From an uncultured Spirochaetales bacterium (GTDB taxonomy: Bacteria > Myxococcota_A > UBA9160 > UBA6930), in the NCBI GenBank assembly GCA_964460485.1, contig CAYWRY010000002.1:4243-68242 (forward strand): DNA of 64,000 bases. Reading direction: 5' to 3'. Each line of letters starts with the position of its first letter. Position 1 is the stretch's first letter. Below are positions 33,796-47,269 of this stretch, in pieces. The notes under the pieces are model-generated. The model made no database searches, was not told the origin of the DNA, and worked only from the letters and a program-made list of their open reading frames with translations. Both the position numbers and the translations under genes were made by a program.

Positions 33796-34617
33796 ATGCG
33801 CGTCTCGCTCGACCCTGCCGATCTCGCGCCCGGCGACCGCGCGGTCGCCGCGCGCGATTGGTCCGGGCTGAGCGTGCAGCGCGTCGCTGGTCCCGAGGAC
33901 CCGGAGCTCGGTGTGGGCTACGCGCGCCTGTGGGCGGAGTTCGGCGCGGACGGCGCCATGGAGCGGCGCGCGGTGATCGAGGCGCGGCTCGCGTGGGACC
34001 CCGCGCGCCCGGTCGGCGCCGTGCGCCTCGCCTACGAGATGCTGGTGTTCCGGCGCGACGGACAGCTCGCGGCGGTGCGCGATCACACGGCGGTCGTACG
34101 CCTCGACGAAAGCGGCGCCCCCGCGCCTGGGCCGATCGTGGTGCATCTCTCCCACGCGCTGGTGGAGCCTGCGGAGCGCGGCAGCGGGCTCGCGGCGTGG
34201 CTGCGCGCACTGCCGCTCGCGGCGGCGCGGCGCTGCGCGGCCGCGGCCGGGCTCCCCGCGAGCGCCCCGATCGTGCTCGTCGCGGAGATGGAGCCGCACG
34301 CGGGCGGCCGTGGGCCGCAGCGGTCCTACGCGCGCGCGGGCTTCTCGAAGGTCGAGCCCGGGGTGGCGCCCTATGCGCAGCCCGACTTCCGCGCACCCGA
34401 TCTCCCGCCGCTGCCCTTCGAGCTCGTGCTGCGCCGCGTGGGCCGGGAGCGAGAGACGGCCCTCCCGGCGGACGAGCTGGCCGCGATCGTGGCGTCGATC
34501 TACGCCGTCTACGCCGTGCACACTCCGGCGCGCGCCATCGAGCCGCTGCAGCGCGCGGCAGCCGTCTGGACGCGCGCGCGCGACGTGTTTCCGCTGGTTC
34601 CACCTACCGCCCCGTGA
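33796..34617 (+). CDS. GNAT-like N-acetyltransferase (putative)
   Basis: An acetyl-CoA motif-A-like segment (VEPAERGSGLAAWL, i.e. R-x-x-G-x-A) sits in an alpha/beta context. It is a paralog of 29366..30550. Confidence 0.6.
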   Translation: MRVSLDPADLAPGDRAVAARDWSGLSVQRVAGPEDPELGVGYARLWAEFGADGAMERRAVIEARLAWDPARPVGAVRLAYEMLVFRRDGQLAAVRDHTAVVRLDESGAPAPGPIVVHLSHALVEPAERGSGLAAWLRALPLAAARRCAAAAGLPASAPIVLVAEMEPHAGGRGPQRSYARAGFSKVEPGVAPYAQPDFRAPDLPPLPFELVLRRVGRERETALPADELAAIVASIYAVYAVHTPARAIEPLQRAAAVWTRARDVFPLVPPTAP

Positions 34618-34645
34618 CAGATCTCTCTTTACGCCGCGGCCCACG

Positions 34646-35593
34646 ATGGGCGACGCTGCGCGCGTGATCGTCGCCTATCACCACCCGGCCTTCGCCGCGG
34701 ACATCGGCCCCCACGTGATGCCGATGCGAAAGTTCCAGCTCGTCGCCGACGGGCTCGCGGGCTGGCCCGGCGTGCGCGTCGAGGCGCCGGCTCCCCTCGA
34801 CGCGGCAGCGCTGCGCCGGGTGCACACCGACGCGTACGTGGAGGCGGTGCGCAGCGGCGTGCCGCGCGAGCTCGCGGAATCGCAGAAGTTCCCGTGGTCG
34901 CCGGCGCTGTGGCCCTCCGTGCTGCTCACCAGCGGCGGCGCGCTGGCGGCGGCGGAGCGCGCGCTGCAAGACGGCATCTCGGCCGCCGTCGCGAGCGGCT
35001 TCCACCACGCCCACGCCGACCACGGCGAGGGCTTCTGCACCTTCAACGGTCTGGTGGTCGCGGCCGAGGCGCTGCGCGCCGCCGGGCGCCTTGCGACGGT
35101 CGCGGTGCTCGACCTCGACCTGCACTACGGCAACGGCACGGCCTCGATGTGCGCCGGGCGTCCCTGGCTCTTCAACTGCTCGATCTACGGCAACGACTAC
35201 TGGCACAACAAGGCCTACCGAGACGTCGAGCATCGGCGGCACAGCGACGGGCCGAATCACGTCTCGTTCGCGTTGCCCAACGGCAGCGGGCGCGCAGAGA
35301 TGCTCGACGCGCTGGCGCGCGGCATCCAGGCGACCCTCGAATGGGGGCGCCCGGACTTGCTGCTCTATCAGGCCGGCGCAGATCCCTATCGCGAGGATCC
35401 GTACTCGCCGCTCGACCTCGACCACGCCGACCTGCGCGAGCGCGATCGCGCCGTCTTCGCCTTCGCGGCGCGCGAGCGCATCCCGATCGCCTGGGTGCTC
35501 GCCGGCGGTTACACGCCCGACGTGAAGAAGGTCGTCGACGTTCACCTCGGCACCTTCGAGGCGGCGCTGGCCGTGTACGGGGCGCGGCCATGA
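34646..35593 (+). CDS. Histone-deacetylase-family (arginase fold) deacetylase, short HDAC11/acetylpolyamine-amidohydrolase-like
   Basis: Motifs SGFHHAHADHGEGFCTFNG, DLDLHYGNGT (Zn ligands D, H) and the catalytic Tyr in LAGGY. ATG at 34646 within ORF 34310..35593. Confidence 0.85.
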   Translation: MGDAARVIVAYHHPAFAADIGPHVMPMRKFQLVADGLAGWPGVRVEAPAPLDAAALRRVHTDAYVEAVRSGVPRELAESQKFPWSPALWPSVLLTSGGALAAAERALQDGISAAVASGFHHAHADHGEGFCTFNGLVVAAEALRAAGRLATVAVLDLDLHYGNGTASMCAGRPWLFNCSIYGNDYWHNKAYRDVEHRRHSDGPNHVSFALPNGSGRAEMLDALARGIQATLEWGRPDLLLYQAGADPYREDPYSPLDLDHADLRERDRAVFAFAARERIPIAWVLAGGYTPDVKKVVDVHLGTFEAALAVYGARP

Positions 35594-36363
35594 GCTGGAT
35601 CCGGCGGCTGTTCGGCGCCTGGACCGCGGTCGTCTTCGCGTTCTTCTACCTGCCGATCGCGATCCTGATCGCGTTCTCCTTCAACGAGTCGCGCCTCAAC
35701 ATCCAGTGGACCGGCTTCACGCTCGACTGGTACGCCAAGCTGTGGAACGACGCGGTGCTGATGCGCGCGGTGAGGAACAGCCTGATCGTCGCCGCCTGCT
35801 CGACCGGCATTTCCGTCGTGCTCGGCACGAGCGGCGCGTGGCTGCTGCACCGCTACCGCTATCGCGCCGCGGGCCTGCTCGAGACGCTCGTGTTCCTGCC
35901 CATGATCGTTCCCGAGGTGATCCTCGGCGTGAGTCTCCTGATCCTGTTCGTCTCGATCGGGCTGCAGCTCGGCTATGCGACGATCGTGATCTCCCACGTG
36001 ACGTTCTGCTTCCCGTTCGTGATGGCCGCGGTGCAGGCGCGCCTCGCCGGGCTCGATCCCTCGCTGGAGGAGGCGGCGCTCGACCTCGGCGCGACGCCGC
36101 TGCAGGCGTTTCTCAAAGTGCTGGTGCCGTTCCTGATGCCCGCGATCCTGTCCGGCGCGCTGATGGCCTTCACGCTCTCGCTGGACGACCTGATCGTCAC
36201 GTACTTCACCGCGAGCGCGCGCACGGCGACGTTGCCGATCGTCATTTTCGGCAAGGTGAAGAAGGGCCTCGATCCGTCGCTCAACGCGATCTCGACGGTG
36301 CTGATCGCGGTCACGGTGCTGGCGCTGTTCGTCACGGAAGCGCTGCGCAAACGGAGCTCGTAA
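35590..36363 (+). CDS. potC: Spermidine/putrescine-type ABC transporter permease
   Basis: 6-TM permease with the EAA loop LEEAALDLGATPLQAF. ATG overlaps the deacetylase stop (ATGA). Confidence 0.9.
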   Translation: MSWIRRLFGAWTAVVFAFFYLPIAILIAFSFNESRLNIQWTGFTLDWYAKLWNDAVLMRAVRNSLIVAACSTGISVVLGTSGAWLLHRYRYRAAGLLETLVFLPMIVPEVILGVSLLILFVSIGLQLGYATIVISHVTFCFPFVMAAVQARLAGLDPSLEEAALDLGATPLQAFLKVLVPFLMPAILSGALMAFTLSLDDLIVTYFTASARTATLPIVIFGKVKKGLDPSLNAISTVLIAVTVLALFVTEALRKRSS

Positions 36364-36387
36364 CTCGAACCCGGAAGGAGAGGATCC

Positions 36388-37482
36388 ATGCGACGCACAC
36401 GATTCGACGGGCGGGCCCTCGCGGCGGCGGCCGCGCTCGCGCTGCTGGCAGGCTGCGGAGGGAAGGAAGAGCCGGCTCCCGCAGAGCCCGCGGCGGCGCC
36501 CGCTGCGGAGGCGGGCGGCGAGCTGAATCTGTTCGCCTGGTCGGAGTACCTGCCGCAGGTCGTGATCGACGAGTTCACGGCCGAGACGGGCATCCAGGTG
36601 AACTACGAGCAGTACGCGTCGAACGAGGAGATGCTCGCGAAGCTGACCTCCGGCGCTGCGGCCTACGACCTGGTGCAGCCTTCCGAGTACACGGTCGAGG
36701 CGATGGTGAAGGAGGGGCTGCTCCAGCCGCTCGACAAGACCCAGCTGAAGAATCTCGGGAACGTCGGGCCAGAGTATTACGGCCGGCCGCACGACCCCGA
36801 GCTCACCTACAGCGTTCCCTACATGCAGGGCACGGTGGGCATCGTCGTGAACACCGAGAAGATCAGCGAGCCGGTCACCAGCTACGCGCAGGTGTTCGAG
36901 CGGAAGAACAAGGGCCGCATCGTGGTGCTCGACGACTCGCGCGAAGTCGTGGGCTGGGCGCTCGCCTCGCTCGGACTCGACGCGAACGACGTGACGGCCG
37001 CGAACCTTGACAAGGCGAAGCCCGTGCTCGCGCGCTGGCTGCCGCTGGTGAAGGTCTACGACTCCGACAGCCCGAAGACGGCGCTGCTCAACGGCGACGT
37101 CGACCTCGGCATCGTCTGGTCGGGCGAGGGCGCGATCCTGATCAACGAGGGCGGCGGCAAGTTCACCTACACGCTGCCGAGCGAGGGCGCGCACATGTTC
37201 ATCGACAGCCTCGCGATCCCGACCACGGCACAGAACGTCCCCGCGGCGCACCAGTTCATCGACTACCTGCTGCGGCCGGAAGTCAGCGTGAAGATCTCGG
37301 CAGAGTTCCCCTACACGAACCCGAACGTCGAAGCGCGCAAGCTGCTCAGCGAGGCGGAGCGCGCGAACGCGGCCAGCTATCCGCCGAGCGACGCGAAGCT
37401 GACGACGTTCCGCGACATCGGGGCGGCGGCCGCGGACGTGGACAAGCTGTTCACGGACATCAAGGCGCAGAGCGGCAGCTGA
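36388..37482 (+). CDS. potD: Polyamine-type periplasmic substrate-binding lipoprotein
   Basis: Lipobox LLAGC. PotD/PotF-like motifs (LNLFAWSEYLP, YDLVQPSEY, SVPYMQGTVGIVVN). A strong RBS, GGAAGGAGAGG, is present. Confidence 0.9.
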   Translation: MRRTRFDGRALAAAAALALLAGCGGKEEPAPAEPAAAPAAEAGGELNLFAWSEYLPQVVIDEFTAETGIQVNYEQYASNEEMLAKLTSGAAAYDLVQPSEYTVEAMVKEGLLQPLDKTQLKNLGNVGPEYYGRPHDPELTYSVPYMQGTVGIVVNTEKISEPVTSYAQVFERKNKGRIVVLDDSREVVGWALASLGLDANDVTAANLDKAKPVLARWLPLVKVYDSDSPKTALLNGDVDLGIVWSGEGAILINEGGGKFTYTLPSEGAHMFIDSLAIPTTAQNVPAAHQFIDYLLRPEVSVKISAEFPYTNPNVEARKLLSEAERANAASYPPSDAKLTTFRDIGAAAADVDKLFTDIKAQSGS

Positions 37483-37544
37483 GCGTGTAAGGGCGGGCGC
37501 GGCGCGCTCGGGCGCCGCGCCGCTCGCCGCCGGCGAGGAGGAGC

Positions 37545-38438
37545 ATGCGGCAGGGCGCGACGAGCTTCGCGGCTGTGGCGGGGACGCAGAAGACGCCGGG
37601 CAGCATCGGCATGCTGCTGCTGCTGCCGCTCGTTCTGTGGGCGGTGGCGTTCGTGGTCGCGCCCGCGGCGATCATGCTCGCCTACAGCTTCCTCGAGCGC
37701 GGGACGCTGGGCGGCGTCGTGTGGGGCTCGCCGACGCTCGACAACTACGCGGGCGTCGGCGACCCAGTCTACCTGCGCATCGTGGTGCGCTCGATCGCCT
37801 ACGCGGCGTTCACCACCGCGATCTGTCTCGCCGCCGGCTACCCGGTCGCCTACCTGATCGGCCGCGCCGACGCGCGCTACCGCAACTTGCTCCTGATGCT
37901 CGTGATGGTGCCGTTCTGGACGAGCTTCCTGATCCGCACCTACGCCTGGGTGACGATCCTCAAGAGCCAAGGCTTCCTGAACTCGATGCTGCTGAGCTTC
38001 GGGATGATCCAGGAGCCGCTGGAGATGCTCTACACGCCGGGCGCCGTGATCATCGGGCTGGTCTACACGTTCCTGCCGTTCATGATCCTGCCGATCTTCA
38101 CCAGCGTGGAGAAGCTCGACGGAGCGCTGATCGAGGCGGCGCTCGACCTCGGCGCCGGGCCGGTGCGCGCCTTCTCGCGCGTGATCGTGCCGCTCACGTC
38201 GCCGGGCATCTCCGCCGGCGTGCTGCTCGTGTTCGTGCCGGCGCTCGGCATCTACGCGGTGAACGACATCCTGGGCGGCGGGCGCGTGGACATGATCGGC
38301 AACATCATCGAGAACCAGATCAAGGGGAACGCGCGCAACTGGCCCTTCGGAGCGGCGCTCGGGACCGCGCTGCTGCTCAGCTTCGCGGTCGCCTACTACT
38401 TCGTGAACCAACGGCAGCGCGCGGCGGAGGGGCGCTGA
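37545..38438 (+). CDS. potB: Spermidine/putrescine-type ABC transporter permease
   Basis: 6-TM permease with the EAA loop LIEAALDLGAGPVRAF. RBS is GAGGAGGAG. Confidence 0.9.
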   Translation: MRQGATSFAAVAGTQKTPGSIGMLLLLPLVLWAVAFVVAPAAIMLAYSFLERGTLGGVVWGSPTLDNYAGVGDPVYLRIVVRSIAYAAFTTAICLAAGYPVAYLIGRADARYRNLLLMLVMVPFWTSFLIRTYAWVTILKSQGFLNSMLLSFGMIQEPLEMLYTPGAVIIGLVYTFLPFMILPIFTSVEKLDGALIEAALDLGAGPVRAFSRVIVPLTSPGISAGVLLVFVPALGIYAVNDILGGGRVDMIGNIIENQIKGNARNWPFGAALGTALLLSFAVAYYFVNQRQRAAEGR

Positions 38439-38456: not shown

Positions 38457-39407
38457 TCAGAGTCGGGCGAGCAGCGCGCCGAGCGTGCGCGCGTCGCCGT
38501 TCGCGGCGAAGGCGATGCGGCCCTCGGCGTCGAGCACGTAGACGAGCGCCGGGTGCGCGAGTTGTCCCGTGTTCTCGTCGCGCTCTCGCGGCACGCGCCA
38601 GGCGTCGAGCACGGCGTTCACCTGTTCCGGCGCGCCGGACAGGACGGCGCCGTCGTCGCCGAGCCGCCAGCTCGCAGCGAGCGCGGGCAGGCGCGCGGGC
38701 GTGTCGCGCCACGGATCGAGGGTGACGACCACGAGCCGCGGCGCGCTCGCGGCGCCGCCGCGCGCGCGGGCCGCGCGCTGCGCAGCGAGCGCCTGGGAGA
38801 CGAGCGCGGGACACACGGCTTCGCAGTGCGCGAACGCGAACGTCACGAGCGCAGGGCGCCCGGCGAGCTGCGCGAGCTCGAGGCGCGCCCCGTGCTGGTC
38901 GACCAACCCGAGCGCAGGGGCGGGCCGGCCGAGGCGCGGGATCGCCGCTGCGTCGGCGAGCGCGGCGGCAGCCTCCGCGGCGACGTCCGGCGACGCGTTC
39001 GCCATCGCGAGCGTGGCGATCCGCGTGCCGCCGGCCGCCGCACCGAGCGCGACGAGCGCGGCGCACGCCGCGAGCGCCGCGCGCCCGAGGCCCGAGGCGC
39101 CGAGGCGCCGCAACCCGCTGCGCAGGCTCCGGCCGAAGGCGGCGAACAGGGCGACGCCGAGGCCGAGCGGCTCGCCGACGAGCAGCAGCCAGCCGCTCGC
39201 GCTCGGCATTCCGCTCGCGCTGGCGTTGAAGCACACCCAGCGCGCGCGAGCGAGCCACTCCGGCGGCTCGTCCGGCGCGGGCCACAGTGCGAGCGCCCAC
39301 CACGCCGCAGTCGCGAGCGCGAGCACCGCGAGTGCGAGCAGCGCCGCGCGTTCGTGCGCGGGCATGCCCGCTCGCCCCGTCACCGCGCTCGCGTTCGCCG
39401 CCGCCAT
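38457..39407 (-). CDS. SCO1/SenC-family copper chaperone fused to an N-terminal polytopic membrane domain
   Basis: The C-terminal thioredoxin-like domain has the CxxxC motif (FAHCEAVCP) and the conserved His (LAHPALVYVLD). The N-terminal ~130 aa have 3 predicted TM segments. ATG overlaps the stop of subunit I (ATGA). Confidence 0.8.
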   Translation of the reverse strand: MAAANASAVTGRAGMPAHERAALLALAVLALATAAWWALALWPAPDEPPEWLARARWVCFNASASGMPSASGWLLLVGEPLGLGVALFAAFGRSLRSGLRRLGASGLGRAALAACAALVALGAAAGGTRIATLAMANASPDVAAEAAAALADAAAIPRLGRPAPALGLVDQHGARLELAQLAGRPALVTFAFAHCEAVCPALVSQALAAQRAARARGGAASAPRLVVVTLDPWRDTPARLPALAASWRLGDDGAVLSGAPEQVNAVLDAWRVPRERDENTGQLAHPALVYVLDAEGRIAFAANGDARTLGALLARL

Positions 39408-41128
39408 CAGCCCACCTTCCACACGACGGAGAGCATCTTCCAGTTCACGAAGTAGTAGGTGACGAACGCGACCAGGAAGACGCCCACCAGCACCATCGTG
39501 CCCGGTGCGACGCCGAGCGCGTGGGGCGCGAGCGCCGCTTCGTCGCCCGCCACGAGCGCGCGCGGCGGGGAGATCAGCCCGAGCGGGAGGCCCTTCGCGG
39601 CGGCGCCACGGCCCGATTCGGCGGCGCCCAGGCGCCGGCCGAAGAACACCGACGCGACCGTCACCAGGATGTAGATCCCGCCGCCGGCGACTGCTAGCAG
39701 ACCGCCGAGCGCCATCACGCCGACCACGAGATCCACCGCCGGCGAGAACTCCACGCCGAAGGGCGCCTGGGAGAAGGTGATGTCCCAGTGCCGCCGCGGG
39801 ACGCCGAAGCTGCCCGCGAAGGTCATCGCCATCGAAAAGATCAGCATGCCGAGAGCGAACAGGTACGGCTGCACGCGCGCCAGCGGCATGAAGGCGATCT
39901 CGCGGCGAAAGATCAGCGGCACCACGTAATAAGTGATGCCCATGAATGCCATCGCCGTGCCCGAGACGACCGTCGCGTGGAAGTGGCCCGGAATGCGCAG
40001 CGTGTTGTGGGCGATGATGTTGATCTGCTCGGTGCCGAACGTGACGCCGGTGATGCCGCCGACGAAGCCAAACACCACCAGCGAGAGCACGAGCGAGCTG
40101 AAGCCGGGGTCGCCCCACGGCGCTCGCGCCAGCCAACCGAACAGTCCCTGCGTCGCGCCGCGCAGGCGCAAGCCGAGCTCGAGCCCGGCGGGCACCGTGA
40201 AGCCGTGGATCATGCTGGCGAGCACCGCCATGTACATGAAGTACGAGGTGTTCCAGACCTTCCAGGCGGGGCCGAAGCCGGGGTCGACGAGCAGGTGGTG
40301 CGCCGACGCCATCGAGATGAACAGGATGTAGAGCACGAAGGCGACGCGGCTGATCTTCTCGTTCAATACCACGCCGCCGACGGTGAGCGCGCCGAGCAGG
40401 TACCAGATCGACACCATCGCCGCGACGTTGATCTGCTGCGACGAGTGACCGAGTCCCCACCAGATCAACCGATAGAAGGACGGGTCGATCTCCAGCCAGC
40501 CCATCGACCAGAGCAGGGTCGGAACGTAGACGATCGCGCCGTGCAGCAGCGTGACGGTCGCGATGATCGCCGCGGTGAGCGCGCCGAAGGTGACGAGCGG
40601 CAGCGAGCCCTTCAAAACACCCTCGCGCTTTGCGACGGTGATCGTCGCGAAAAAGTGGCCCACCACGATCAGCGCGCCGACGGCGAACAGGATCACGCCG
40701 AGATAGAAGGGGGGCTCGGCGCGCAGCGGGACGTAGGAGGTGAAGAGCACGTCCGCCTTGCCGCTGAACATCATCCACTCGACCAGCGCGGCGCCGGCCG
40801 TCATCAGGCCGAAGGCGAGCCAGCCGAGCCGAGGCGCGGGCAGCCGCGCCGAGAGCAGCGGCGCGGCTGCGAAGTAGAGCACCGCCATCTCGAAGAACAG
40901 GATGAAGAAGATCAGCATGTTCATGCCGTGCACGGTGAGGATCCGGTAGAACCACACCGGATCGAGCAGGTGCACCGCCTGCCAGCGCGTCAGCAGCACG
41001 AGCAGCGCTGCGATGCCTCCGACGAGCAGCGCGATCGTCGCGGCGACCGCGTTGGCCTTGATCAGCGCGTCGGCGTGCGCGTCGACGAACAGGCCGGTGG
41101 AGGGGCAGGTTCGTCCCGCGGCGCTCAT
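39407..41128 (-). CDS. Heme-copper oxidoreductase subunit I, ba3 (B-family)-like but lacking the cross-link tyrosine
   Basis: Co-linear with T. thermophilus CbaA by eye: LTVHGMNMLIFF, WWGLGH, SAHHLLVDPGFGP, LRGATQGLFGWLARAPWGDP, HNTLRIPGHFHATV and GVPRRHW. GHPxVY is replaced by GHSSQQ. ATG at 41128 overlaps the subunit II stop. Confidence 0.9.
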   Translation of the reverse strand: MSAAGRTCPSTGLFVDAHADALIKANAVAATIALLVGGIAALLVLLTRWQAVHLLDPVWFYRILTVHGMNMLIFFILFFEMAVLYFAAAPLLSARLPAPRLGWLAFGLMTAGAALVEWMMFSGKADVLFTSYVPLRAEPPFYLGVILFAVGALIVVGHFFATITVAKREGVLKGSLPLVTFGALTAAIIATVTLLHGAIVYVPTLLWSMGWLEIDPSFYRLIWWGLGHSSQQINVAAMVSIWYLLGALTVGGVVLNEKISRVAFVLYILFISMASAHHLLVDPGFGPAWKVWNTSYFMYMAVLASMIHGFTVPAGLELGLRLRGATQGLFGWLARAPWGDPGFSSLVLSLVVFGFVGGITGVTFGTEQINIIAHNTLRIPGHFHATVVSGTAMAFMGITYYVVPLIFRREIAFMPLARVQPYLFALGMLIFSMAMTFAGSFGVPRRHWDITFSQAPFGVEFSPAVDLVVGVMALGGLLAVAGGGIYILVTVASVFFGRRLGAAESGRGAAAKGLPLGLISPPRALVAGDEAALAPHALGVAPGTMVLVGVFLVAFVTYYFVNWKMLSVVWKVG

Positions 41129-41715
41129 CGCTCGCCTCCTTCGCGGTCGTCGGCGTCGTCGTCCGCGCCGGCGGCCGGCAGCACGATCACCTTGCCGGTC
41201 ATCAGGTGGTGCCCGATTCCGCAGAACTCGTTGCAGATGATCGAGAACTCGCCGTGTGCGTTGGGCTTCACGCGCAGCGCGTAGTCGTACCCGGGCACGA
41301 CCTGGAAGTTCACGTTGACCGGGAAGAGGTGGAAGCCGTGGTTCACGTCGATCGAGGAGAGGTGCAGCGTGTACTCCGCCCCCTCGCGCAGCCGGAGGAT
41401 CGGCAGCCACGACCACATCGACGCCTGGAGGTAGACGTCGCTGCCCGGCGGCGGCTCGACCACCGGGAAGCCGTTCTCGTCACCCACCTGATGTGCGGCG
41501 ATGAACTCGGCGACGCGCGTCGCGTACGCGGCGGCCGTCACGCGATGGCGGATGCCCGACGGGTTCTGTCCGCCGCGCAGGTGCCAGAGCGGCATCATCG
41601 CGAACAGCACGAGACACCACGCGAAGGCGATCGCGACCCACACCTTCTCGCTGCCGTGGACCGGCTTCCACCAGATCCGTTCCGGCGCTTCGATTCCCGA
41701 GTGGTACACGCGCAC
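41125..41715 (-). CDS. Heme-copper oxidoreductase subunit II with a complete CuA site
   Basis: One TM segment plus a cupredoxin domain. CuA ligands are present in SIDVNHGFH and CNEFCGIGHHLM (C-x3-C-x3-H-x2-M). It aligns to ba3 CbaB. Confidence 0.9.
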   Translation of the reverse strand: MRVYHSGIEAPERIWWKPVHGSEKVWVAIAFAWCLVLFAMMPLWHLRGGQNPSGIRHRVTAAAYATRVAEFIAAHQVGDENGFPVVEPPPGSDVYLQASMWSWLPILRLREGAEYTLHLSSIDVNHGFHLFPVNVNFQVVPGYDYALRVKPNAHGEFSIICNEFCGIGHHLMTGKVIVLPAAGADDDADDREGGER

Positions 41716-41724
41716 TCCTCCGAG

Positions 41725-41889
41725 TCAGGGCAGCGGCGCGTCGCCCAGCGACGCGAGCTCGAGCAGCCCCCAGCCCGTGTAGAAGACGAACATCACGACC
41801 AGGCAGGCGGCGAGGAGCAGGAACGGCCGATCGAAGAGCCGCTGGCCGAGCGGCACCTCGTCGCCTGCGCGCTGCGGGGATTCCGTCAT
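41725..41889 (-). CDS. Small single-TM peptide, possible subunit IIa analogue
   Basis: 54-aa ORF at the 3' end of shadow ORF 41725..43587. AGGAGG lies 4-9 nt upstream of the ATG. One TM segment (FLLLAACLVVMFVFYTGWGLL). It lies 9 nt upstream of subunit II. Confidence 0.55.
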   Translation of the reverse strand: MTESPQRAGDEVPLGQRLFDRPFLLLAACLVVMFVFYTGWGLLELASLGDAPLP

Positions 41890-42027
41890 GTGAGCCTCCT
41901 TCGCGCCCGGCCCCGGACGCCGCACACACTGCTGCGGTGCAAGCGGTGCGCCGATCTCGACAGGGAACGGCGCCTGCAAAGACGGAGGCGGCCGAGCGCC
42001 CTCGTTGCCCGCCAACTGCGAGACTTC

Positions 42028-43731
42028 ATGACGGAAAGCCGAGATCGAACGGCGCCGAGCGGCGGCGCGCGCGAGCCGCTCGAGAAGGGCGGCGGGCGCG
42101 GGCCTGCGCCAAGCGGCCCCAGCGTGGTGCGTCTCGCCTCGTCCGATTCGTCGACGGCCGCGCGCCTTCCGGGGCTTCGCGCAGCGGCGCTGAAGCCGCT
42201 CGCCGCGGCGGACGCGGCCCTCACACGCCTGCTCGGCTGGGAGGCGAACCCGCTCCACCAGACGGGCGCCGTCGCCGCCCTCGCGTTCCTGGTCATGCTC
42301 GCGAGCGGCCTCTACCTGCTGCTGCTCTACCGGGTCGGCGCGCCGTACGAGTCCATGCAGGCGATCCAGGCACAGGCGCTCGCGGGCCGCTGGCTGCGCG
42401 CACTGCATCGCTACGCCGCCGACGCCGCGGTGATCGCGGTGGCGCTGCACGTCTTCCGGATGTGGGCGCAGGGACGGAGCTGGGGCCCGCGCTCGCTCGC
42501 TTGGCTCTCGGGCCTCGTGCTCGCGGGACTGCTCTTCCTGAGCGGCTGGACCGGCTACGTGATGGTGTGGGACGAGCACGCGCTGGTGCTCGCGCGCGAG
42601 GGCGCACGGCTGCTCGACGCGCTGCCCTTCTTCGCCGAGCCGCTCGCGCGCACCTTCTCGGGCGAGCGCGCGATGCCGAGCGCCTTCTTCTTCTTGAACC
42701 TGTTCGCGCACGTCGCGGTGCCCGTCGGCATGGCGGCGCTCCTGCTCGTGCACGTCGCGCGCATCGCGCGCCCGCAGCTCCTGCCGCCGTGCAAGCTCGC
42801 GCTCGGCTTCATGCTCGCGCTCGCCGCGCTCTCGGTGGTGCTGCCGGCGCCGCTGCCGCCGCGTGCCGATCCGCTCGCGCTGCCGCGCGAAGTGCCGCTC
42901 GACCTCTTCTACGCGTTCTGGCTCCCGGTCACGCGGGCGCTCCCGCCGATCGGCGCCTGGGGCGTGCTCGTCGCGCTCACGCTGGCGGCCGCGAGCGCGC
43001 CGTGGTGGACGCGGCCGCGGCGCGCCGCGCGTGCGGCGCCTTCCACCGTCGACCCCGAGCTGTGCACGGGCTGCGAGCAGTGCTCGCTGGACTGCCCCTT
43101 CGACGCGATCGCGATGGTGACGCGCGCCGCTCCGCGAGACGCCGCGGCCGCCGGCCGCTCGGAGCGGCACGCCCTGGTGAACGCCGAGCGCTGCGTCTCG
43201 TGCGGAGTGTGCGCGGGCTCTTGTGCGCCGATGGCGATCGGGCCGCCCGGGCGCGCGGGGCGCGACCAGCTCGCGGCGGCCCGCGCGTTCGTCGCGAAGG
43301 CGGAGCTCGCTCACCCCGACGTGGTCGTGATCGCCTGCCGGAACGGCGGCGGCGCGAGGGAAGCCGCCGGGGCGCAGCAGTTCGCCGTCGACTGCGCCGG
43401 CGCGCTGCACAGCTCGGTGGTCGAGCTGTTCCTGCGCAGCGGCGCCGGCGGCGTGCTGGTGGCCGCCTGCTCGCCGCGCGACTGCCGCGCGCGCGAAGGG
43501 CCCAAATGGCTCGGCGAGCGGCTCTTCCAGGAGCGCGAGGCGGAGCTGCACGCGCGCGTCGATCGCACGCGCGTGCGCGTCGTCCACGCGGGCGCGGGTG
43601 AGCGCGCTGCCTTCGCCGCCGCGCTCGCCGACTTCCGCCGCGAGATCGCGGTGCGCGGGCGCAGCGAGGTGGAGCCGCCGGCGCCGCTCGAGCCGGAGTG
43701 CGCCGCGAGCGCGCAGGGAGCCCAGCGATGA
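42028..43731 (+). CDS. Fusion protein: di-heme cytochrome b (N-terminal type) + 2x[4Fe-4S] ferredoxin + MvhD/FlpD-like Fe-S domain
   Basis: Two H-x13-H pairs (LHRYAADAAVIAVALH; AHVAVPVGMAALLLVH) lie in TM helices. CTGCEQCSLDCP and CVSCGVCAGSCAP are cluster motifs. The C-terminal four-Cys pattern (IAC...VDCAG...GVLVAACSPRDC) resembles the hydrogenase delta subunit. The start is uncertain, because ATG 42028 has no clear RBS. Confidence 0.8.
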   Translation: MTESRDRTAPSGGAREPLEKGGGRGPAPSGPSVVRLASSDSSTAARLPGLRAAALKPLAAADAALTRLLGWEANPLHQTGAVAALAFLVMLASGLYLLLLYRVGAPYESMQAIQAQALAGRWLRALHRYAADAAVIAVALHVFRMWAQGRSWGPRSLAWLSGLVLAGLLFLSGWTGYVMVWDEHALVLAREGARLLDALPFFAEPLARTFSGERAMPSAFFFLNLFAHVAVPVGMAALLLVHVARIARPQLLPPCKLALGFMLALAALSVVLPAPLPPRADPLALPREVPLDLFYAFWLPVTRALPPIGAWGVLVALTLAAASAPWWTRPRRAARAAPSTVDPELCTGCEQCSLDCPFDAIAMVTRAAPRDAAAAGRSERHALVNAERCVSCGVCAGSCAPMAIGPPGRAGRDQLAAARAFVAKAELAHPDVVVIACRNGGGAREAAGAQQFAVDCAGALHSSVVELFLRSGAGGVLVAACSPRDCRAREGPKWLGERLFQEREAELHARVDRTRVRVVHAGAGERAAFAAALADFRREIAVRGRSEVEPPAPLEPECAASAQGAQR

Positions 43732-44225
43732 CGCGCCTCGCCGGGGTCGCCCTCGCGCTCGCGCTGCTGGGCGCGCTCGCCTGGGGCACGCGCGCGCCGT
43801 TGCCGGCGAGCGCAGAGGACGCTGCCATCCGTCTCGCGTGGCGCGCGCTGGGGGAGGCCGCGCTGCACTGTCGAACGCCGAGTGCCGAGGAGCTGGCGCG
43901 CTTGCCTGCGCACATGCGCCGCAAGGAGATCTGCGAACGCCGCCTTCCGACCTTCCGCCTCGAGGTGGACGTGGACGGCGTGCGGGTCGTCGAGGATCGC
44001 GTCGAGCCGGCGGGAGCGGCGGGCGACCGCCCGGCCGTGGTGCTCCGGGAGCTCGCCGTCGCGCCCGGGGATCATCGCCTGCGCGTCTCGTTCCGCGCGG
44101 AACGCGAGGGCGCAGCGCCGCCGAAGCTGCTGGATCGGCGCTTCGCGCTGGCGGCCGGCGAGGTGGCCCTCGTGATGGAGGACCCGGCCAGCCGCGAGCT
44201 CGTGCTGCGCACCCGCGGCCGCTGA
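43728..44225 (+). CDS. Hypothetical exported protein coupled to the cytochrome b fusion gene
   Basis: ATG overlaps the upstream stop (ATGA). Signal peptide-like N-terminus (LAGVALALALLGALAWG). No family recognised. Confidence 0.55.
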   Translation: MTRLAGVALALALLGALAWGTRAPLPASAEDAAIRLAWRALGEAALHCRTPSAEELARLPAHMRRKEICERRLPTFRLEVDVDGVRVVEDRVEPAGAAGDRPAVVLRELAVAPGDHRLRVSFRAEREGAAPPKLLDRRFALAAGEVALVMEDPASRELVLRTRGR

Positions 44226-44274: not shown

Positions 44275-44397
44275 GCTCCCGTCTTCGGCGCGGCCTGCAA
44301 GATCTCCGCGCCCCGTTCGTATGGACCCGGCGTGGACGCGATCTCGCTCATTGCCGCGCCCGGGTTCGGGCCGTTCGGGTTAGGGTGGCGCCATTTC

Positions 44398-45021
44398 ATG
44401 GCGTCTCGGGAACCTGGGGAGGCGGCGGTGCGACCGGGCTCGGCGACCGCGCGCGCAGTCGCCGCGACCGGACCCTCGTCGCCGCTGGACCACGAGGGGC
44501 TCGCCGCCCACTACGCCGCGGACGTGCTGCGCCTGTGCCGCCGCATGCTCGGCCACGCCCACGACGCCGAGGAGGCGCGCAGCGAGACCTTCCTGCGCGC
44601 CCAGCAAGCCGCAGCGAGCTGGGACGGCCGGCCGCTGCGCGCCTGGTTGCTGAGCATCGCCGCCCATCACTGCGTGGATCGCCTGCGGCGCCGCGCGCTG
44701 GAGGGGCGGCTCTTCGAGGCGAGGGACCTCGACGCCGGGGATCTTCCGGCCGGCGCGCCGAATCCGCTCACGCTGCTGCTCGCCCGCGAGCGCAGCGTCC
44801 AGCTCGAGGCCGCGCTCGAGGCGCTGCCCGACAAGTACCGCGCGCCGCTCGTGCTGCGCTTCCTCGCGGACCAGAGCTACGGCGAGATCTCCGCTGCGCT
44901 CGGCGTGACGGAGGCGCAGGTCGCGGTGCTCGTGTTCCGCGCGAAGGCGAAGCTGCGCGAGGCGCTCGCGGAGGCGCCGCGCGCGCGCGGCCCCGCTGCG
45001 CAGCGGAGGGCGCAGTCGTGA
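44398..45021 (+). CDS. ECF-type RNA polymerase sigma factor
   Basis: Region 2 (ARSETFLRAQ, LRAWLLSIAAHHCVDRLRRR) and region 4 (QSYGEISAALGVTEAQVAVLVFRAKAKL). ATG at 44398 within ORF 44332..45021. Confidence 0.85.
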   Translation: MASREPGEAAVRPGSATARAVAATGPSSPLDHEGLAAHYAADVLRLCRRMLGHAHDAEEARSETFLRAQQAAASWDGRPLRAWLLSIAAHHCVDRLRRRALEGRLFEARDLDAGDLPAGAPNPLTLLLARERSVQLEAALEALPDKYRAPLVLRFLADQSYGEISAALGVTEAQVAVLVFRAKAKLREALAEAPRARGPAAQRRAQS

Positions 45022-46667
45022 GCTGCCCGCACGAATGGCAGCTCTCCGCGTACGCGGACGCCGGCCTCGACGCGGCGACGGTACGCGCGCTCGAGACGCA
45101 CCTCGTCGGCTGCGCGCGCTGCCGCCGGCGCGTGATCGCGCTGCGCGACGAGGCGCGCGTGCTGCGCCACCTCGCGCACGAGCGTTTGACCGCGCCCGCC
45201 GCGCCCGCGCCCGCGGGCCGCGGCATCGCCCTCGGCCTACCGACTTCCGTCGCCGCGCTCGCCCTCGCTTCCTTCGCGGCGAGCGCGCTGCAGGGGAGCC
45301 TGCCGCGCCCGGTCCGCTGGCTCGCGCCTTCCGAACGCCTGGGAGTGACCTCCATGTTCTTCGACTTGCTGTTCGCCGTCCGGGAAAGCTTCTCGGCGTG
45401 GTTCGACTTTGCGTTCGCGCTGGCTGCGCTCGGCGTGGCCGCCGGCGTGGCCTATCTCGCGGCCGATCTGCTCGTGCGCCGCTCGCGAGGCGGGGCGCGC
45501 ACCGCGGCGCTGCTGCTCGCGCTGGCCGGCGCCGCCGCGCTCGCTCCGGACGCGGCGCAGGCGAAGATCGAGGTGCGGGAGCAGGACGAGGTGACGGTTG
45601 GCGCCGACGAGACCGTCGAGGGCTCGCTGGTCGCGCTCGGCGACGACGTGACGATCGAGGGGACGGTGCGCGGCGATCTGCTCGCGTTCGGCGACAGGTT
45701 GCGCCTCCGCGGCACGGTCGAGGGCAACGTGTTCTGCGCGGGCGAGAACGTAGAGATCGCCGCGAAGGTGAGCGGCAGCGTGCACTGCGCGGGCTACGAC
45801 CTGGCCGCGGCGCCCGTCGTGAGCGGCAACCTCTACGCGGCGGGGCGCGACCTGTCGGTCGAGGCCGCCGCGCGCGTCGGCGGCGACCTCGCCGTGGGCT
45901 GCAACGAGTGTCTCGTGCAGGGCGAGTCCGCCCGCGACCTGCTCGTCGCCGGCGACGAGGTCGTGCTCGAGGGCCGCGCCGCCCGCGACGTCACGATCCA
46001 CGCGGGCGACGTCAGCTTCGGAGCGGGCGCCAGCTATCCCGGCGCGATCTCCCTCCACATGCCGCAAGGCAAGGAGCCCGAGGTCGCGAGCGGCGCCGCG
46101 CTCGGCCCGATCACGCGCGAGCAGTTGGACGGCGACGGCACCCCGACGCCGATCCGCCGCATCAGCCAGGCCGAGCGCATCCGCGGCCGGCTCGTGCTGA
46201 TCGCGAGCGCCTTCGTGGTGGGCCTCGTGCTCTTCGCGCTCGCGCCGGGGATGTTCGCAGTGCGCGTGGAGTCCACCGGCCGCTTCTTCGGGGCGGTGGG
46301 CATGGGCTTCGCGGTGCTGGTCGTCGTGCCCGTCGCGCTGGTCCTGCTCGCGATCACGGTGCTCGGCATTCCGGCCGCGCTGTTCGGCGCGCTCGTGCTG
46401 GTGTCGCTCGTGTTCGTGGGGCCCGTGGTGGTGGCCGCCGTCGTCGGGCGCGCGGTGATGCGTTCTGGCGGCGAGAGCTTCCGCGACTTCGCGGTCGCGC
46501 TGGGCGTGGGCCTCTTGCTGTTCGGCGTGCTGGCGAGCCTGCCCGCGGTCGGCGGCCTCGCGACGTTCGTGCTCGTCCTCGAGGGCGTCGGGCTGCTCAC
46601 CCTCGCCGCCCACGAGTGGTGGGCCGAGCGCCGCGCGGCGCGGCAGGCGGCGGCCGTACCGCTGTAA
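45018..46667 (+). CDS. Zinc-type anti-sigma factor with a bactofilin-like beta-helical repeat domain and a polytopic C-terminal membrane domain
   Basis: GTG overlaps the sigma stop (GTGA). ZAS motif H-x3-C-x2-C (THLVGCARC). A TM segment is followed by repeated G-x-V/L-x-G units (VEGSLVALGDDVTIEGTVRGDLLAFGDRLRLRGTVEGNVF...), then about 4-5 TM helices. Confidence 0.75.
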   Translation: MSCPHEWQLSAYADAGLDAATVRALETHLVGCARCRRRVIALRDEARVLRHLAHERLTAPAAPAPAGRGIALGLPTSVAALALASFAASALQGSLPRPVRWLAPSERLGVTSMFFDLLFAVRESFSAWFDFAFALAALGVAAGVAYLAADLLVRRSRGGARTAALLLALAGAAALAPDAAQAKIEVREQDEVTVGADETVEGSLVALGDDVTIEGTVRGDLLAFGDRLRLRGTVEGNVFCAGENVEIAAKVSGSVHCAGYDLAAAPVVSGNLYAAGRDLSVEAAARVGGDLAVGCNECLVQGESARDLLVAGDEVVLEGRAARDVTIHAGDVSFGAGASYPGAISLHMPQGKEPEVASGAALGPITREQLDGDGTPTPIRRISQAERIRGRLVLIASAFVVGLVLFALAPGMFAVRVESTGRFFGAVGMGFAVLVVVPVALVLLAITVLGIPAALFGALVLVSLVFVGPVVVAAVVGRAVMRSGGESFRDFAVALGVGLLLFGVLASLPAVGGLATFVLVLEGVGLLTLAAHEWWAERRAARQAAAVPL

Positions 46668-46705
46668 CCGCCGCAGACATCCGTTCGTAGAGGGCGGCGA
46701 GCGGC

Positions 46706-47269
46706 GTGAAGGACGCGAGCGAGCGTGGGGCGCGTTGGCGCGAGTGGATGGCGTCGGCCCAGCGGGGCGACGCGATCGCGTACGAGCGGCTGCTCGAGGA
46801 CCTGCTGCCGTTCGTGCGCGTCCTCGTGCGCGCGCGCATCGGTGAGGATCCGAACGCGGAGGACGTCGTGCAGGAGGTGCTGCTCTCGATCCACACCGCG
46901 CGCCACACCTTTCAGGCCGGGCGCGAGCTCGAGCCCTGGGTGCGCACGATCGCGCGCAACGCGGTGATCGACGCCGTGCGGCGCCGCAGCCGCCAGCGCG
47001 CCCGCGACGCGGGCGTCGACGCGGAGGCGCTGCCCGACGACGCGCGCGAGCGCGCCAGCGCCGAAGCCGCGCCGCTCCCCCGCTCGCTGGCGCGCGCGCT
47101 GGAGCAGCTCCCGGCGGTGCAGCGCGAGGCCGTGCTGCTGCTCAAGGTCGAGGGTCTCTCGGTCGCGGAGGCGGCCGGCCGCGCGCGCACCACGCCTGGC
47201 GCGTTGAAGCTGCGCGCTCACCGCGGCTACAAGCTGCTGCGCGACTTGTTGGGACGGGAACCGGCGTGA
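46706..47269 (+). CDS. ECF-type RNA polymerase sigma factor (SigF-like, paired with NrsF-type regulator)
   Basis: Region 2 (DVVQEVLLSIH, LEPWVRTIARNAVIDAVRRR) and region 4 (LSVAEAAGRARTTPGALKLRAHRG). Start is GTG 46706 or ATG 46748. Confidence 0.85.
   Translation: MKDASERGARWREWMASAQRGDAIAYERLLEDLLPFVRVLVRARIGEDPNAEDVVQEVLLSIHTARHTFQAGRELEPWVRTIARNAVIDAVRRRSRQRARDAGVDAEALPDDARERASAEAAPLPRSLARALEQLPAVQREAVLLLKVEGLSVAEAAGRARTTPGALKLRAHRGYKLLRDLLGREPA

What the first reader, a model, noticed from the sequence alone, without database searches (positions are those of the whole stretch)
38457..41889. ba3-like heme-copper oxidoreductase operon whose catalytic subunit lacks the cross-link tyrosine (GHSSQQ instead of GHPxVY): candidate NO-reductase-type enzyme
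Four minus-strand genes are tightly coupled: a 54-aa single-TM peptide with an AGGAGG RBS, a CuA subunit II, subunit I, and SCO1/SenC. The II/I and I/SCO1 junctions are ATGA overlaps.

Subunit I is co-linear with Thermus ba3 CbaA. It keeps the low-spin heme His (LTVHGMN), the CuB His (WWGLGH; SAHHLL) and the HFH pair (PGHFHATV). However, the residue four positions after the first CuB histidine, which is the His-Tyr cross-link partner (H233-Y237 in T. thermophilus ba3), is Gln. The neighbouring hydrophobic/aromatic residues of the ba3 K-path analogue (PIVYFW...Y) are replaced by SSQQIN...V.

Subunit II retains every CuA ligand. Tyr-less derivatives of the B family have been proposed to be NO reductases. 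One example is the sNOR norSY-senC clusters noted in ammonia-oxidiser genomes, and another is the eNOR family. The senC linkage here matches that pattern.

I cannot assign the subfamily from sequence alone. No cytochrome c or cupredoxin donor gene is present in the cluster.
Basis: partly seen in the sequence, partly recalled or inferred. Interest (0 to 1): 0.8.

Follow-up and report, generated by a model that had tools for sequence, protein, structure and literature searches.

The report
eNOR-type nitric oxide reductase operon
This is a real four-gene operon for a copper-haem respiratory enzyme whose active-site tyrosine is replaced by glutamine, the published hallmark of the already known eNOR family of nitric oxide reductases; the less expected part is a conserved cytochrome b/iron-sulfur partner gene pair next to it.

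Summary
Four coupled minus-strand genes encode a 54-aa peptide, a CuA subunit II, a catalytic subunit I and SCO1. Subunit I keeps every haem and CuB histidine. The residue aligned with the ba3 cross-link tyrosine (Tyr237) is Gln232.

The subfamily can be assigned. It is eNOR, not sNOR.
- Published tables give Gln at this position for eNOR and Asn for sNOR and bNOR.
- The K-path serine (ba3 S309), which sNOR lacks, is present here as Ser305.
- Gln231-Gln232 is invariant in 86 sequences from about ten phyla.
- The Gln clade is monophyletic in my tree. It includes haloarchaeal and Thermus members, and one of these has the His/Lys haem ligation reported for some eNORs.
- The published Ferrigenium eNOR operon also carries sco1.

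The Rhodothermus marinus eNOR reduces NO and not O2. This enzyme is therefore a misannotated new member of a known, abundant family.

One addition: the operon is flanked by two further conserved genes. One is a bc1-type dihaem cytochrome b fused to two [4Fe-4S] motifs and an MvhD-like domain. The other is a 165-aa exported beta-sandwich protein. They accompany the enzyme in 79 and 67 of 86 loci, either divergently or in the same operon. Their role (electron supply or maturation) is unknown.

No nir or nos genes lie in the window.

The parts
41725..41889 (-). 54-aa single-TM peptide, first gene of the operon. By position and size it resembles ba3 subunit IIa.
   Evidence: AAGGAGG RBS. Conserved in 77 loci with the pattern PLxQRLxDxPFLLL...VMF.F.T.WG..E...L..APLP. 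No Pfam or NCBIfam hit. Equivalence to subunit IIa is inferred from gene order (peptide-II-I, as I recall it for cbaDBA) and was not tested.
41125..41715 (-). Subunit II: N-terminal TM helix plus CuA cupredoxin domain. The likely true start is the GTG at 41709.
   Evidence: CoxB TIGR02866 at 2e-13; COX2 is weak. H125, C162, E164, C166, H170 and M173 are each conserved in at least 90% of 84 sequences. So is Glu23-Lys, which I match from my recollection of the ba3 sequence to the K-path entrance Glu15(II).
39407..41128 (-). Catalytic subunit I (573 aa), eNOR type. Haem ligands H67/H384 (low spin) and H382 (high spin). Non-haem metal ligands H228, H277, H278. Gln232 replaces the cross-link Tyr. 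K-path-like residues S305, H308, T311 and Y243.
   Evidence: 100% identical protein on JGI metagenome contigs. Closest genome hit is a Myxococcota MAG at 91%.
38457..39407 (-). SCO1/SenC copper chaperone (316 aa) with a long N-terminal membrane region. It overlaps the subunit I stop by 1 nt.
   Evidence: PF02630 at 4e-23. Present directly downstream of subunit I in 80 of 86 loci. CxxxCP and His are conserved.
41890..42027 (.). 138-bp divergent intergenic region, presumably carrying the promoters. Most Gemmatimonadota relatives have an Rrf2 regulator gene here; this window does not.
   Evidence: Rrf2 sits at this position in about 47 loci.
42028..43731 (+). Conserved partner 1 (567 aa): six-helix bc1-type dihaem cytochrome b fused to a cytoplasmic 2x[4Fe-4S] ferredoxin and an MvhD/FlpD-like domain.
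   Evidence: Pfam Cytochrome_B, Fer4 and FlpD. Invariant H127/H141 and H228/H242 (each pair 14 residues apart), two CxxCxxCxxxCP motifs, and Cys437/456/481/486. AF2 pLDDT 77; best folds are bc1 cytochrome b over 280-317 columns. Adjacent to the enzyme in 79 of 86 loci, either divergent or co-linear after SCO1. Reciprocal check 3 of 3.
43728..44225 (+). Conserved partner 2 (165 aa): N-terminal signal or anchor helix plus a beta-sandwich domain. Conserved C47, H61-M62-R63, C68 and H115. ATGA-coupled to partner 1.
   Evidence: Junction read. Found in 67 of 86 loci. No Pfam or NCBIfam hit. AF2 pLDDT 89. No significant PDB fold match. Alignment.

Best explanation
The locus encodes an eNOR-family nitric oxide reductase. 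This family is a CuA-containing, B-family-derived haem-copper enzyme in which glutamine replaces the His-Tyr cross-link tyrosine.

Inferred mechanism, by homology:
1. Electrons enter at the periplasmic CuA centre of subunit II.
2. They pass to the low-spin haem (H67/H384).
3. They then reach the binuclear site, made of the high-spin haem (H382) and a non-haem metal held by H228/H277/H278. Fe or Cu cannot be decided from sequence.
4. There 2 NO + 2 e- + 2 H+ give N2O + H2O.

Protons probably come from the cytoplasm through a retained K-channel analogue: Glu23 of subunit II, then T311, H308, S305 and Y243. If so, the reaction may be electrogenic.

Without the tyrosine the enzyme should not carry out four-electron O2 reduction.

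SCO1 matures the copper centres. The small peptide is a structural subunit.

Two neighbouring genes belong functionally to the system: a dihaem cytochrome b fused to 2x[4Fe-4S] and MvhD, and an exported beta-sandwich protein. My preferred reading is a transmembrane electron conduit that feeds cytoplasmic or quinol reducing power to the enzyme. A role in cofactor maturation is nearly as likely.

Shown here: the gene set, the ligands, the Gln substitution, its invariance, the clade structure and the gene linkage.

Inferred: NO reductase activity (from the R. marinus enzyme), proton uptake, the identity of the metal, and the roles of the partners.
For: - Gln at His+4 by alignment to ba3. Published criterion: eNOR = Gln, sNOR and bNOR = Asn, cNOR and qNOR = Glu, oxidases = Tyr (PMC8756737).
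- Q231, Q232, N234, S305, H308 and all metal ligands are invariant or nearly so in 86 sequences from Myxococcota, Gemmatimonadota, Acidobacteriota, Nitrospirota, Methylomirabilota, Bdellovibrionota, Alphaproteobacteria, Thermomicrobia, Thermus and others.
- In an NJ tree the Gln clade is monophyletic (72% bootstrap). It is sister, at 100%, to archaeal Tyr-bearing HxxQY enzymes, inside the B-like radiation. This fits the published view that eNOR arose from O2 reductases.
- The clade contains a haloarchaeal member (P0124). It also contains a Thermus plasmid member with HFK, which gives His/Lys ligation of the low-spin haem. Both are traits reported for eNOR.
- The T. roseum homologue is followed by a CtaA-CtaB fusion. 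The literature says many eNOR operons contain CtaA.
- The published Ferrigenium eNOR operon has II, I, haem o synthase, sco1, a protein of unknown function and cytochrome b/Fe-S proteins. The Defluviimonas operon has the same architecture, as do 13-15 of my loci.
- R. marinus eNOR reduces NO (0.68 per s) and does not reduce O2.
- NO and denitrification context in relatives: napA-napD-nirS beside the operon in L093; NirK-like genes in 6 loci; an Rrf2 regulator upstream in about 47 loci; NirK-like, ScdA_N and Rrf2 around the Thermus copy.
Against: - No sequence of the biochemically characterised R. marinus enzyme, and no curated eNOR HMM, could be compared directly. Family assignment rests on the published diagnostic residue, clade composition and operon architecture.
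- No nirK, nirS, nosZ, ctaA or ctaB lies in the 64-kb window, and there is no Rrf2 at this locus.
- Two tyrosines, Y296 and Y299 on helix VIII, are conserved only in the Gln clade. Their distance to the active site could not be measured.
- Only one eNOR has been assayed, and its turnover was low.
- The role of the partner genes is untested.
Confidence: 0.8

Rival explanations
1. It is an sNOR (NorSY-SenC type), as in ammonia oxidisers.
For: The gene order II-I-SCO1 resembles norSY-senC(-orf1) of Nitrosomonas. Both families are Tyr-less B-family derivatives with CuA.
Against: - sNOR has Asn at the Tyr position; here it is an invariant Gln.
- sNOR lacks the ba3 S309 equivalent; here Ser305 is conserved in 85 of 86 sequences.
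- sco1 is also typical of eNOR operons.
- No ammonia-oxidiser sequence appeared among the top 80 genome hits.
- No authentic sNOR sequence was available for direct comparison.
Confidence: 0.03
2. It is still a terminal oxidase: a high-affinity O2 reductase that uses a different tyrosine or another radical site.
For: - It descends from Tyr-bearing oxidases.
- Y296 and Y299 are Tyr only in the Gln clade.
- A comparable argument has been made for sNOR in N. europaea, which is induced under O2 limitation.
- eNOR expression needs micro-oxic conditions.
Against: - R. marinus eNOR showed no O2 reduction with several donors.
- The authors of the family found no migrated tyrosine in models of these families.
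- Y267 is shared with the Tyr-bearing sister clade, so it is not compensatory.
- nirS, nap and nirK neighbours occur in some relatives.
Confidence: 0.08
3. The enzyme together with the cytochrome b/Fe-S protein catalyses some other reaction, or serves mainly in NO detoxification or sensing rather than in respiration.
For: - There are no denitrification genes in the window.
- An Rrf2 (Fe-S sensor-type) regulator lies upstream in most relatives.
- The cytoplasm-facing Fe-S module suggests a private electron supply, as detoxifying NO reductases have (inference).
Against: - Detoxification is still NO reduction, so this differs in physiology and not in chemistry.
- eNOR is highly expressed under denitrifying conditions in Accumulibacter and Ferrigenium.
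Confidence: 0.09

Closest known systems
eNOR family (Rhodothermus marinus eNOR; Murali et al. 2024, PMC11214002; Hemp & Gennis 2008)
   Same: - Gln replaces the cross-link Tyr.
- CuA subunit II is present.
- The K-channel analogue, including the S309 equivalent, is retained.
- sco1 and haem-o-synthase linkage occurs in relatives.
- The taxonomic spread is broad, including Halobacteria and Thermus.
   Different: - There is no CtaA or CtaB at this locus.
- It belongs to the core bacterial HSSQQIN subclade. That subclade almost always carries a cytochrome b-2x[4Fe-4S]-MvhD gene and a 165-aa beta-sandwich gene. This linkage has been described only for Ferrigenium, where it was called unusual.
- Direct comparison with the R. 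marinus sequence was not possible.
Thermus thermophilus ba3 oxidase (CbaDBA; PDB 1EHK/1XME)
   Same: - Best solved-structure relative (1e-42), co-linear over residues 59-479.
- Same haem and CuB histidines.
- CuA subunit II plus a small third peptide encoded first.
- Single K-type channel.
   Different: - Y237 becomes Q232 and Y244 becomes V239.
- T312 becomes H308.
- A Glu (E80) in helix II is absent from ba3.
- Expected to reduce NO rather than O2.
sNOR (NorSY-SenC of ammonia oxidisers) and bNOR (CuANOR of Bacillus azotoformans)
   Same: Both are Tyr-less, CuA-containing B-family derivatives proposed or shown to reduce NO. sNOR clusters also carry senC.
   Different: - Both have Asn, not Gln, at the Tyr position.
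- sNOR lacks the S309 equivalent.
- bNOR is restricted to Bacillales.
NarI/NarH-type redox-loop modules and NOX/MsrQ-type transmembrane haem b conduits (analogy for the cytochrome b/Fe-S partner only)
   Same: A dihaem membrane cytochrome b is wired to cytoplasmic redox cofactors. This architecture can carry electrons across the membrane.
   Different: The membrane part is bc1-type cytochrome b (helices A-F) without a Rieske or cytochrome c1 partner. The cytoplasmic part is a ferredoxin plus MvhD fusion. The direction of electron flow and the partner are unknown. The analogy rests on general knowledge and was not tested.

Membership tests
eNOR | Gln at the position of the cross-link Tyr (CuB-His + 4) | tested here: met
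   GH228SSQQ232 aligns with ba3 GH233PIVY237. Q232 is invariant in 86 sequences. Criterion taken from PMC8756737 Table A4 and Fig. 6.
eNOR | Three non-haem-metal histidines and both haem ligation sites retained | tested here: met
   H228, H277, H278, H67 and H382 are invariant. H384 is present in 85 of 86 sequences, with Lys in the Thermus plasmid copy.
eNOR | CuA-binding cupredoxin subunit II | tested here: met
   H125, C162, E164, C166, H170 and M173 are present and conserved in at least 90% of sequences.
eNOR | K-channel-like polar residues resembling B-family, including the S309 equivalent | tested here: met
   S305, H308, T311, Y243 and Glu23 of subunit II. Feature as described in PMC11214002.
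eNOR | Groups phylogenetically with recognised eNORs | tested here: inconclusive
   It groups with Gln-bearing haloarchaeal, Thermus and T. roseum homologues (72% bootstrap) and is sister to Tyr-bearing archaeal enzymes. However, R. marinus, Accumulibacter and Ferrigenium sequences and the curated HMMs were not available.
eNOR | Haem A(s) cofactors, with CtaA in many operons (common but not universal) | tested here: not met
   No CtaA or CtaB in the window. CtaB is present in 15 related loci. CtaA is found only in T. roseum. Haem type cannot be read from sequence.
eNOR | NO reductase activity without O2 reductase activity | not testable with these tools
   Shown only for the R. marinus enzyme.
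sNOR | Asn at the Tyr position | tested here: not met
   The residue is Gln232.
sNOR | Absence of the ba3 S309 equivalent, with an alternative channel containing a conserved Glu | tested here: not met
   Ser305 is conserved in 85 of 86 sequences. A conserved Glu80 in helix II does exist, but the Tyr-bearing sister clade shares it.
B-family O2 reductase (ba3 type) | His-Tyr cross-link tyrosine on helix VI | tested here: not met
   Y237 is replaced by Q232. Classical B sequences in the same alignment all have Tyr.
cNOR/qNOR | Glu at His+4 as fourth FeB ligand; cytochrome c subunit or fused quinol domain; no CuA | tested here: not met
   Gln is found instead of Glu, and a CuA subunit II is present.

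The most novel reading that the evidence does not exclude
The core bacterial eNOR clade is really a six-gene module. Its bc1-type dihaem cytochrome b, fused to a cytoplasmic 2x[4Fe-4S]-MvhD domain, would form a dedicated complex with the reductase together with the exported beta-sandwich protein.

Two versions are possible. In one, the module is a private transmembrane electron supply, giving a cytoplasmic-donor or quinol:NO oxidoreductase that bypasses bc1 and cytochrome c. In the other, which is more radical, it is an oxygen-independent route to the haem A-type cofactors the enzyme needs under anoxia.
Probability: 0.35. Interest if true: 0.65.

Novelty: new member of a known kind. Interest (0 to 1): 0.33.

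Why it matters
eNOR genes are usually annotated as cytochrome c oxidase subunits, as this one is. Genomes carrying them are therefore scored as lacking an N2O-producing step. Correct assignment changes predicted denitrification and N2O budgets for Myxococcota, Gemmatimonadota and other soil and sediment groups.

The near-universal linkage to a cytochrome b/Fe-S/MvhD protein bears on two open questions about eNOR. One is who donates its electrons. The other is how its haem A-type cofactors are made when oxygen is scarce.

Tried and rejected
- **Direct comparison with authentic sNOR.** I looked at plasmid-borne homologues from Deinococcus and Geobacillus, taxa listed for sNOR. Both turned out to be classical Tyr-bearing ba3-type oxidases, so they were of no use.
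- **Supplementary datasets of Murali et al. 2024.** Not held.
- **Genome-contig scan.** It returned only the 80 closest loci (at least 59% identity). R. marinus, Accumulibacter and Nitrosomonas were therefore not retrieved.
- **Denitrification genes in the window.** Pfam scans of 30 further ORFs found none.
- **Unbiased clustering of all flanking ORFs in 86 loci.** Nothing outside the module and the Rrf2 regulator is shared by more than 15 loci.
- **Assigning the Rrf2 regulator to NsrR.** It matches only at superfamily level, with IscR and NsrR both below cutoff.
- **Checking whether a Tyr reaches the active site.** This was not possible.
- **ECF sigma/anti-sigma genes as part of the system.** Rejected, because they occur in only 3-4 loci, which are the contigs encoding the identical subunit I.


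Full report
**Observation**

The window is about 73% G+C. On the minus strand between 38457 and 41889 lie four tightly packed genes:
- a 54-aa single-helix peptide (41889..41728), with AAGGAGG 6 nt before the ATG;
- subunit II (ORF 41715..41128), whose likelier start is the second GTG at 41709, given the position of the GGAGGA site and the JGI call of 194 aa;
- subunit I (41128..39410, 573 aa), overlapping subunit II by ATGA;

Pfam and NCBIfam confirm COX1 (1e-60), a CoxB-like cupredoxin and SCO1-SenC. Subunit II has the complete CuA motif H125...C162xE164xC166xxxH170xxM173.

Against solved structures the best matches are ba3-type oxidases (Aquifex 7DEG at 2e-44, Thermus ba3 at 1e-42). The alignment places GH228SSQQ232 over GH233PIVY237. 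The tyrosine-less active site is therefore real.

**Which family**

A published table, modified from Hemp & Gennis 2008, lists the residue at this position for each family. It is Tyr in oxygen reductases, Glu in cNOR and qNOR, Asn in sNOR and CuANOR/bNOR, Gln in eNOR and Asp in gNOR. The same paper defines eNOR sequences by the 'characteristic Gln' where oxidases have Tyr (PMC8756737). Murali et al. 2024 add that eNOR and bNOR keep a K-channel like that of ba3, including the S309 equivalent. sNOR lacks that serine.

Mapping through the ba3 alignment gives these equivalences:

| ba3 residue | This enzyme |
|---|---|
| S309 | S305 |
| T312 | H308 |
| T315 | T311 |
| Y248 | Y243 |
| Y244 | V239 |

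On the two residues that separate eNOR from sNOR, this protein is eNOR.

**Breadth and conservation**

The protein itself occurs, 100% identical, on JGI metagenome contigs annotated 'cytochrome c oxidase subunit 1'. More than 8000 database proteins match it. A scan of one genome per species found more than 580 genomes with a relative. The closest is a Myxococcota MAG (91%), followed by many Gemmatimonadota. Further hits come from Acidobacteriota, Nitrospirota, Methylomirabilota, Bdellovibrionota, Kiritimatiellia and others.

In an alignment of 86 sequences the following are invariant: H67, E80, H228, Q231, Q232, N234, Y243, Y267, H277, H278, H308, E317 and H382. S305 is present in 85 of 86. 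The Gln is under strict selection and is not decay.

**Phylogeny**

A representative-level search showed that the nearest Tyr-bearing relatives (41-46% identity) carry HxxQY. Those with a source name are archaeal (Thermoproteota, Hodarchaeales). Classical GHPxVY B-type oxidases are about 30-33% identical.

In a neighbour-joining tree with 100 bootstraps, all Gln-bearing sequences form one clade (72%). That clade is sister, with 100% support, to the archaeal HxxQY enzymes, inside the B-like radiation.

The Gln clade includes several informative members:
- a haloarchaeal protein (Natrarchaeobius, 44% identity);
- Thermomicrobium roseum and Defluviimonas plasmid copies (52%);
- Thermus thermophilus plasmid copies (45%).

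The Thermus copy has HFK instead of HFH. This gives His/Lys ligation of the low-spin haem, a peculiarity Murali et al. report for 'some eNORs'. Thermus and Halobacteria were already included in a published eNOR tree. [quoted passage not shown]

I could not obtain the R. marinus reference sequence or the curated HMMs. This is the main remaining gap.

**Function**

The R. marinus eNOR was purified. It reduces NO (0.68 per s at 25 °C), does not reduce O2 and carries haem As. By homology, the enzyme here takes electrons at CuA and passes them via the low-spin haem to the binuclear site. There it reduces two NO to N2O, taking protons from the cytoplasm through the K-path analogue. The entrance Glu of subunit II (Glu23-Lys, which I match from my recollection of the ba3 sequence to Glu15) is also conserved.

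The metal at the His3 site cannot be read from sequence. The literature notes Fe in the characterised NORs.

Context in relatives supports an NO-linked role:
- napA-napD and nirS lie immediately beside the operon in the locus of the 58%-identical representative.
- NirK-like genes lie within 10 kb in 6 loci.
- A NirK-like gene, ScdA_N and an Rrf2 regulator surround the Thermus copy.
- An Rrf2-family regulator with a Cys-rich C-terminal segment sits directly upstream of the operon in about 47 loci. It could be placed only at superfamily level.

The window itself has no Rrf2 there, and no nir, nos or cta genes anywhere in its 64 kb.

**The tyrosine question**

Y267 on helix VII lies ten residues before the HH pair. 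My recollection is that the migrated C-family Tyr lies six residues before it. Y267 is also conserved in the Tyr-bearing sister clade, so it is not a replacement.

Y296 and Y299 on helix VIII are tyrosines only in the Gln clade. They lie six and nine residues above Ser305. I could not measure their distance to His228. The family's authors report no migrated tyrosine in their models, and the assayed eNOR has no oxidase activity. I therefore treat this as an open detail rather than a contradiction.

Two plus-strand genes lie 138 bp upstream and are transcribed divergently. They are coupled to each other by an ATGA overlap.

The first (42028..43731, 567 aa) combines a cytochrome b domain, two 4Fe-4S motifs and an MvhD/FlpD domain.
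- In an alignment of 27 homologues, the two histidine pairs H127/H141 and H228/H242 are invariant. Each pair is 14 residues apart, which is the spacing I recall for the bis-His pairs of bc1 cytochrome b.
- Both CxxCxxCxxxCP motifs and four Cys of the MvhD-like domain are also invariant.
- The AF2 model (pLDDT 77) matches bc1 cytochrome b over 280-317 columns, that is helices A-F. The Fe-S domains follow helix F, on the cytoplasmic side.

The second (43728..44225, 165 aa) has an N-terminal signal or anchor helix and a confidently modelled beta-sandwich (pLDDT 89). It has conserved Cys47, His61-Met62, Cys68 and His115. It has no Pfam or NCBIfam family and no significant PDB fold match.

A tblastn search of the 86 loci finds the cytochrome b/Fe-S gene in 79 and the 165-aa gene in 67. 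Most absences are at contig ends. Two arrangements occur:
- divergent, in Gemmatimonadota and Myxococcota;
- a single co-linear operon, peptide-II-I-SCO1-cyt b/FeS-165aa, in Acidobacteriota, Bdellovibrionota, Methylomirabilota, Latescibacterota and the Defluviimonas plasmid, sometimes with haem o synthase inserted.

Three cytochrome b/Fe-S homologues chosen by their own similarity all sit beside the enzyme. The haloarchaeal, T. roseum and Thermus copies lack both genes.

A 2026 preprint on Ferrigenium straubiae lists II, I, haem o synthase, sco1 and a 'scaffold protein of unknown function' as the common eNOR operon. It calls two cytochrome b/[Fe-S] genes there 'rather unusual'. In the core bacterial clade they are in fact the rule.

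**What the partners might do (inference only)**

The architecture is a membrane dihaem wire joined to cytoplasmic Fe-S clusters. This suits transmembrane electron transfer, so it could be a private electron supply for the reductase. The Ferrigenium variant with fused FAD/NADH domains points the same way.

On the other hand, its position after the assembly genes (SCO1, haem o synthase) points to a maturation role. So does the absence of CtaA wherever it is present. This might even touch the unsolved question of how haem A is made without O2, which is raised. I rate electron supply slightly above maturation. Neither is tested.

**Verdict**

However, the enzyme belongs to eNOR, an already described, biochemically validated and environmentally abundant family. 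It is a new, misannotated member of a known kind. The conserved cytochrome b/Fe-S/MvhD plus beta-sandwich pair is the only part that goes beyond current descriptions.

Noticed in passing
window 42028-44225 (+): A divergently transcribed, ATGA-coupled gene pair. One gene is a bc1-type dihaem cytochrome b fused to 2x[4Fe-4S] and MvhD/FlpD. The other is a 165-aa exported beta-sandwich protein with no known family. They are linked to the eNOR-type operon in 79 and 67 of 86 loci, in either a divergent or a co-linear arrangement.
   Followed up: yes
window 39410-41128 (-), subunit I residues Y296 and Y299: Two helix VIII tyrosines are conserved only in the Gln (eNOR-type) clade. The Tyr-bearing sister clade has L/I/V and F/H/A at these positions. 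Whether they approach the binuclear centre is unknown.
   Followed up: partly
L005, L006, L094-L096 and about 47 loci in all; absent at window 41890-42027: An Rrf2-family regulator with a Cys-rich C-terminal segment sits immediately upstream of the peptide gene in most Gemmatimonadota relatives. It is missing from this window and its closest Myxococcota relatives. The subfamily (NsrR or IscR) could not be resolved.
   Followed up: partly
L088 (T. thermophilus plasmid pTthSNM6-6b) 11983-13668: This eNOR-type subunit I has HFK instead of HFH, giving Lys as a low-spin haem ligand. It lies beside a NirK-like multicopper protein fused to a cupredoxin, cytochrome P460, ScdA_N and Rrf2 genes.
   Followed up: partly
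L093 1-13800: In the 58%-identical representative's contig the operon lies within a denitrification island (napA, napD, multihaem cytochrome c, nirS). It is preceded by a second, weakly COX1-like 497-aa gene. The cytochrome b/Fe-S gene there is longer (715 aa).
   Followed up: no
window 44332-47269 (+): An ECF sigma factor, a zf-HC2 anti-sigma protein with bactofilin-like repeats, and a second ECF sigma factor lie just downstream of the 165-aa gene. They are shared only with the contigs encoding the identical subunit I, so they are probably not part of the system.
   Followed up: partly
window 34310-38438 (+): A polyamine-type ABC transporter (solute-binding protein and two permeases) lies next to a histone-deacetylase-family (acetylpolyamine amidohydrolase-like) gene. 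It abuts the SCO1 gene convergently.
   Followed up: no
window 6896-12411 (+): A tetrapyrrole cluster: a Cytochrom_C_asm-family membrane protein, a uroporphyrinogen-III methylase/HemD fusion, and HemB. It is unrelated in position to the oxidase operon.
   Followed up: no
window 38460-39407 (-), SCO1 residues 1-150: The SCO1 protein has an unusually long N-terminal region with about three predicted hydrophobic helices and a conserved W..R.R..CF segment, instead of a single anchor helix.
   Followed up: no
L094 and L096, downstream of the cytochrome b/Fe-S pair: In two Gemmatimonadota-type loci a TM2-domain protein and the PntAB transhydrogenase genes follow the partner pair. This may be coincidence.
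   Followed up: no
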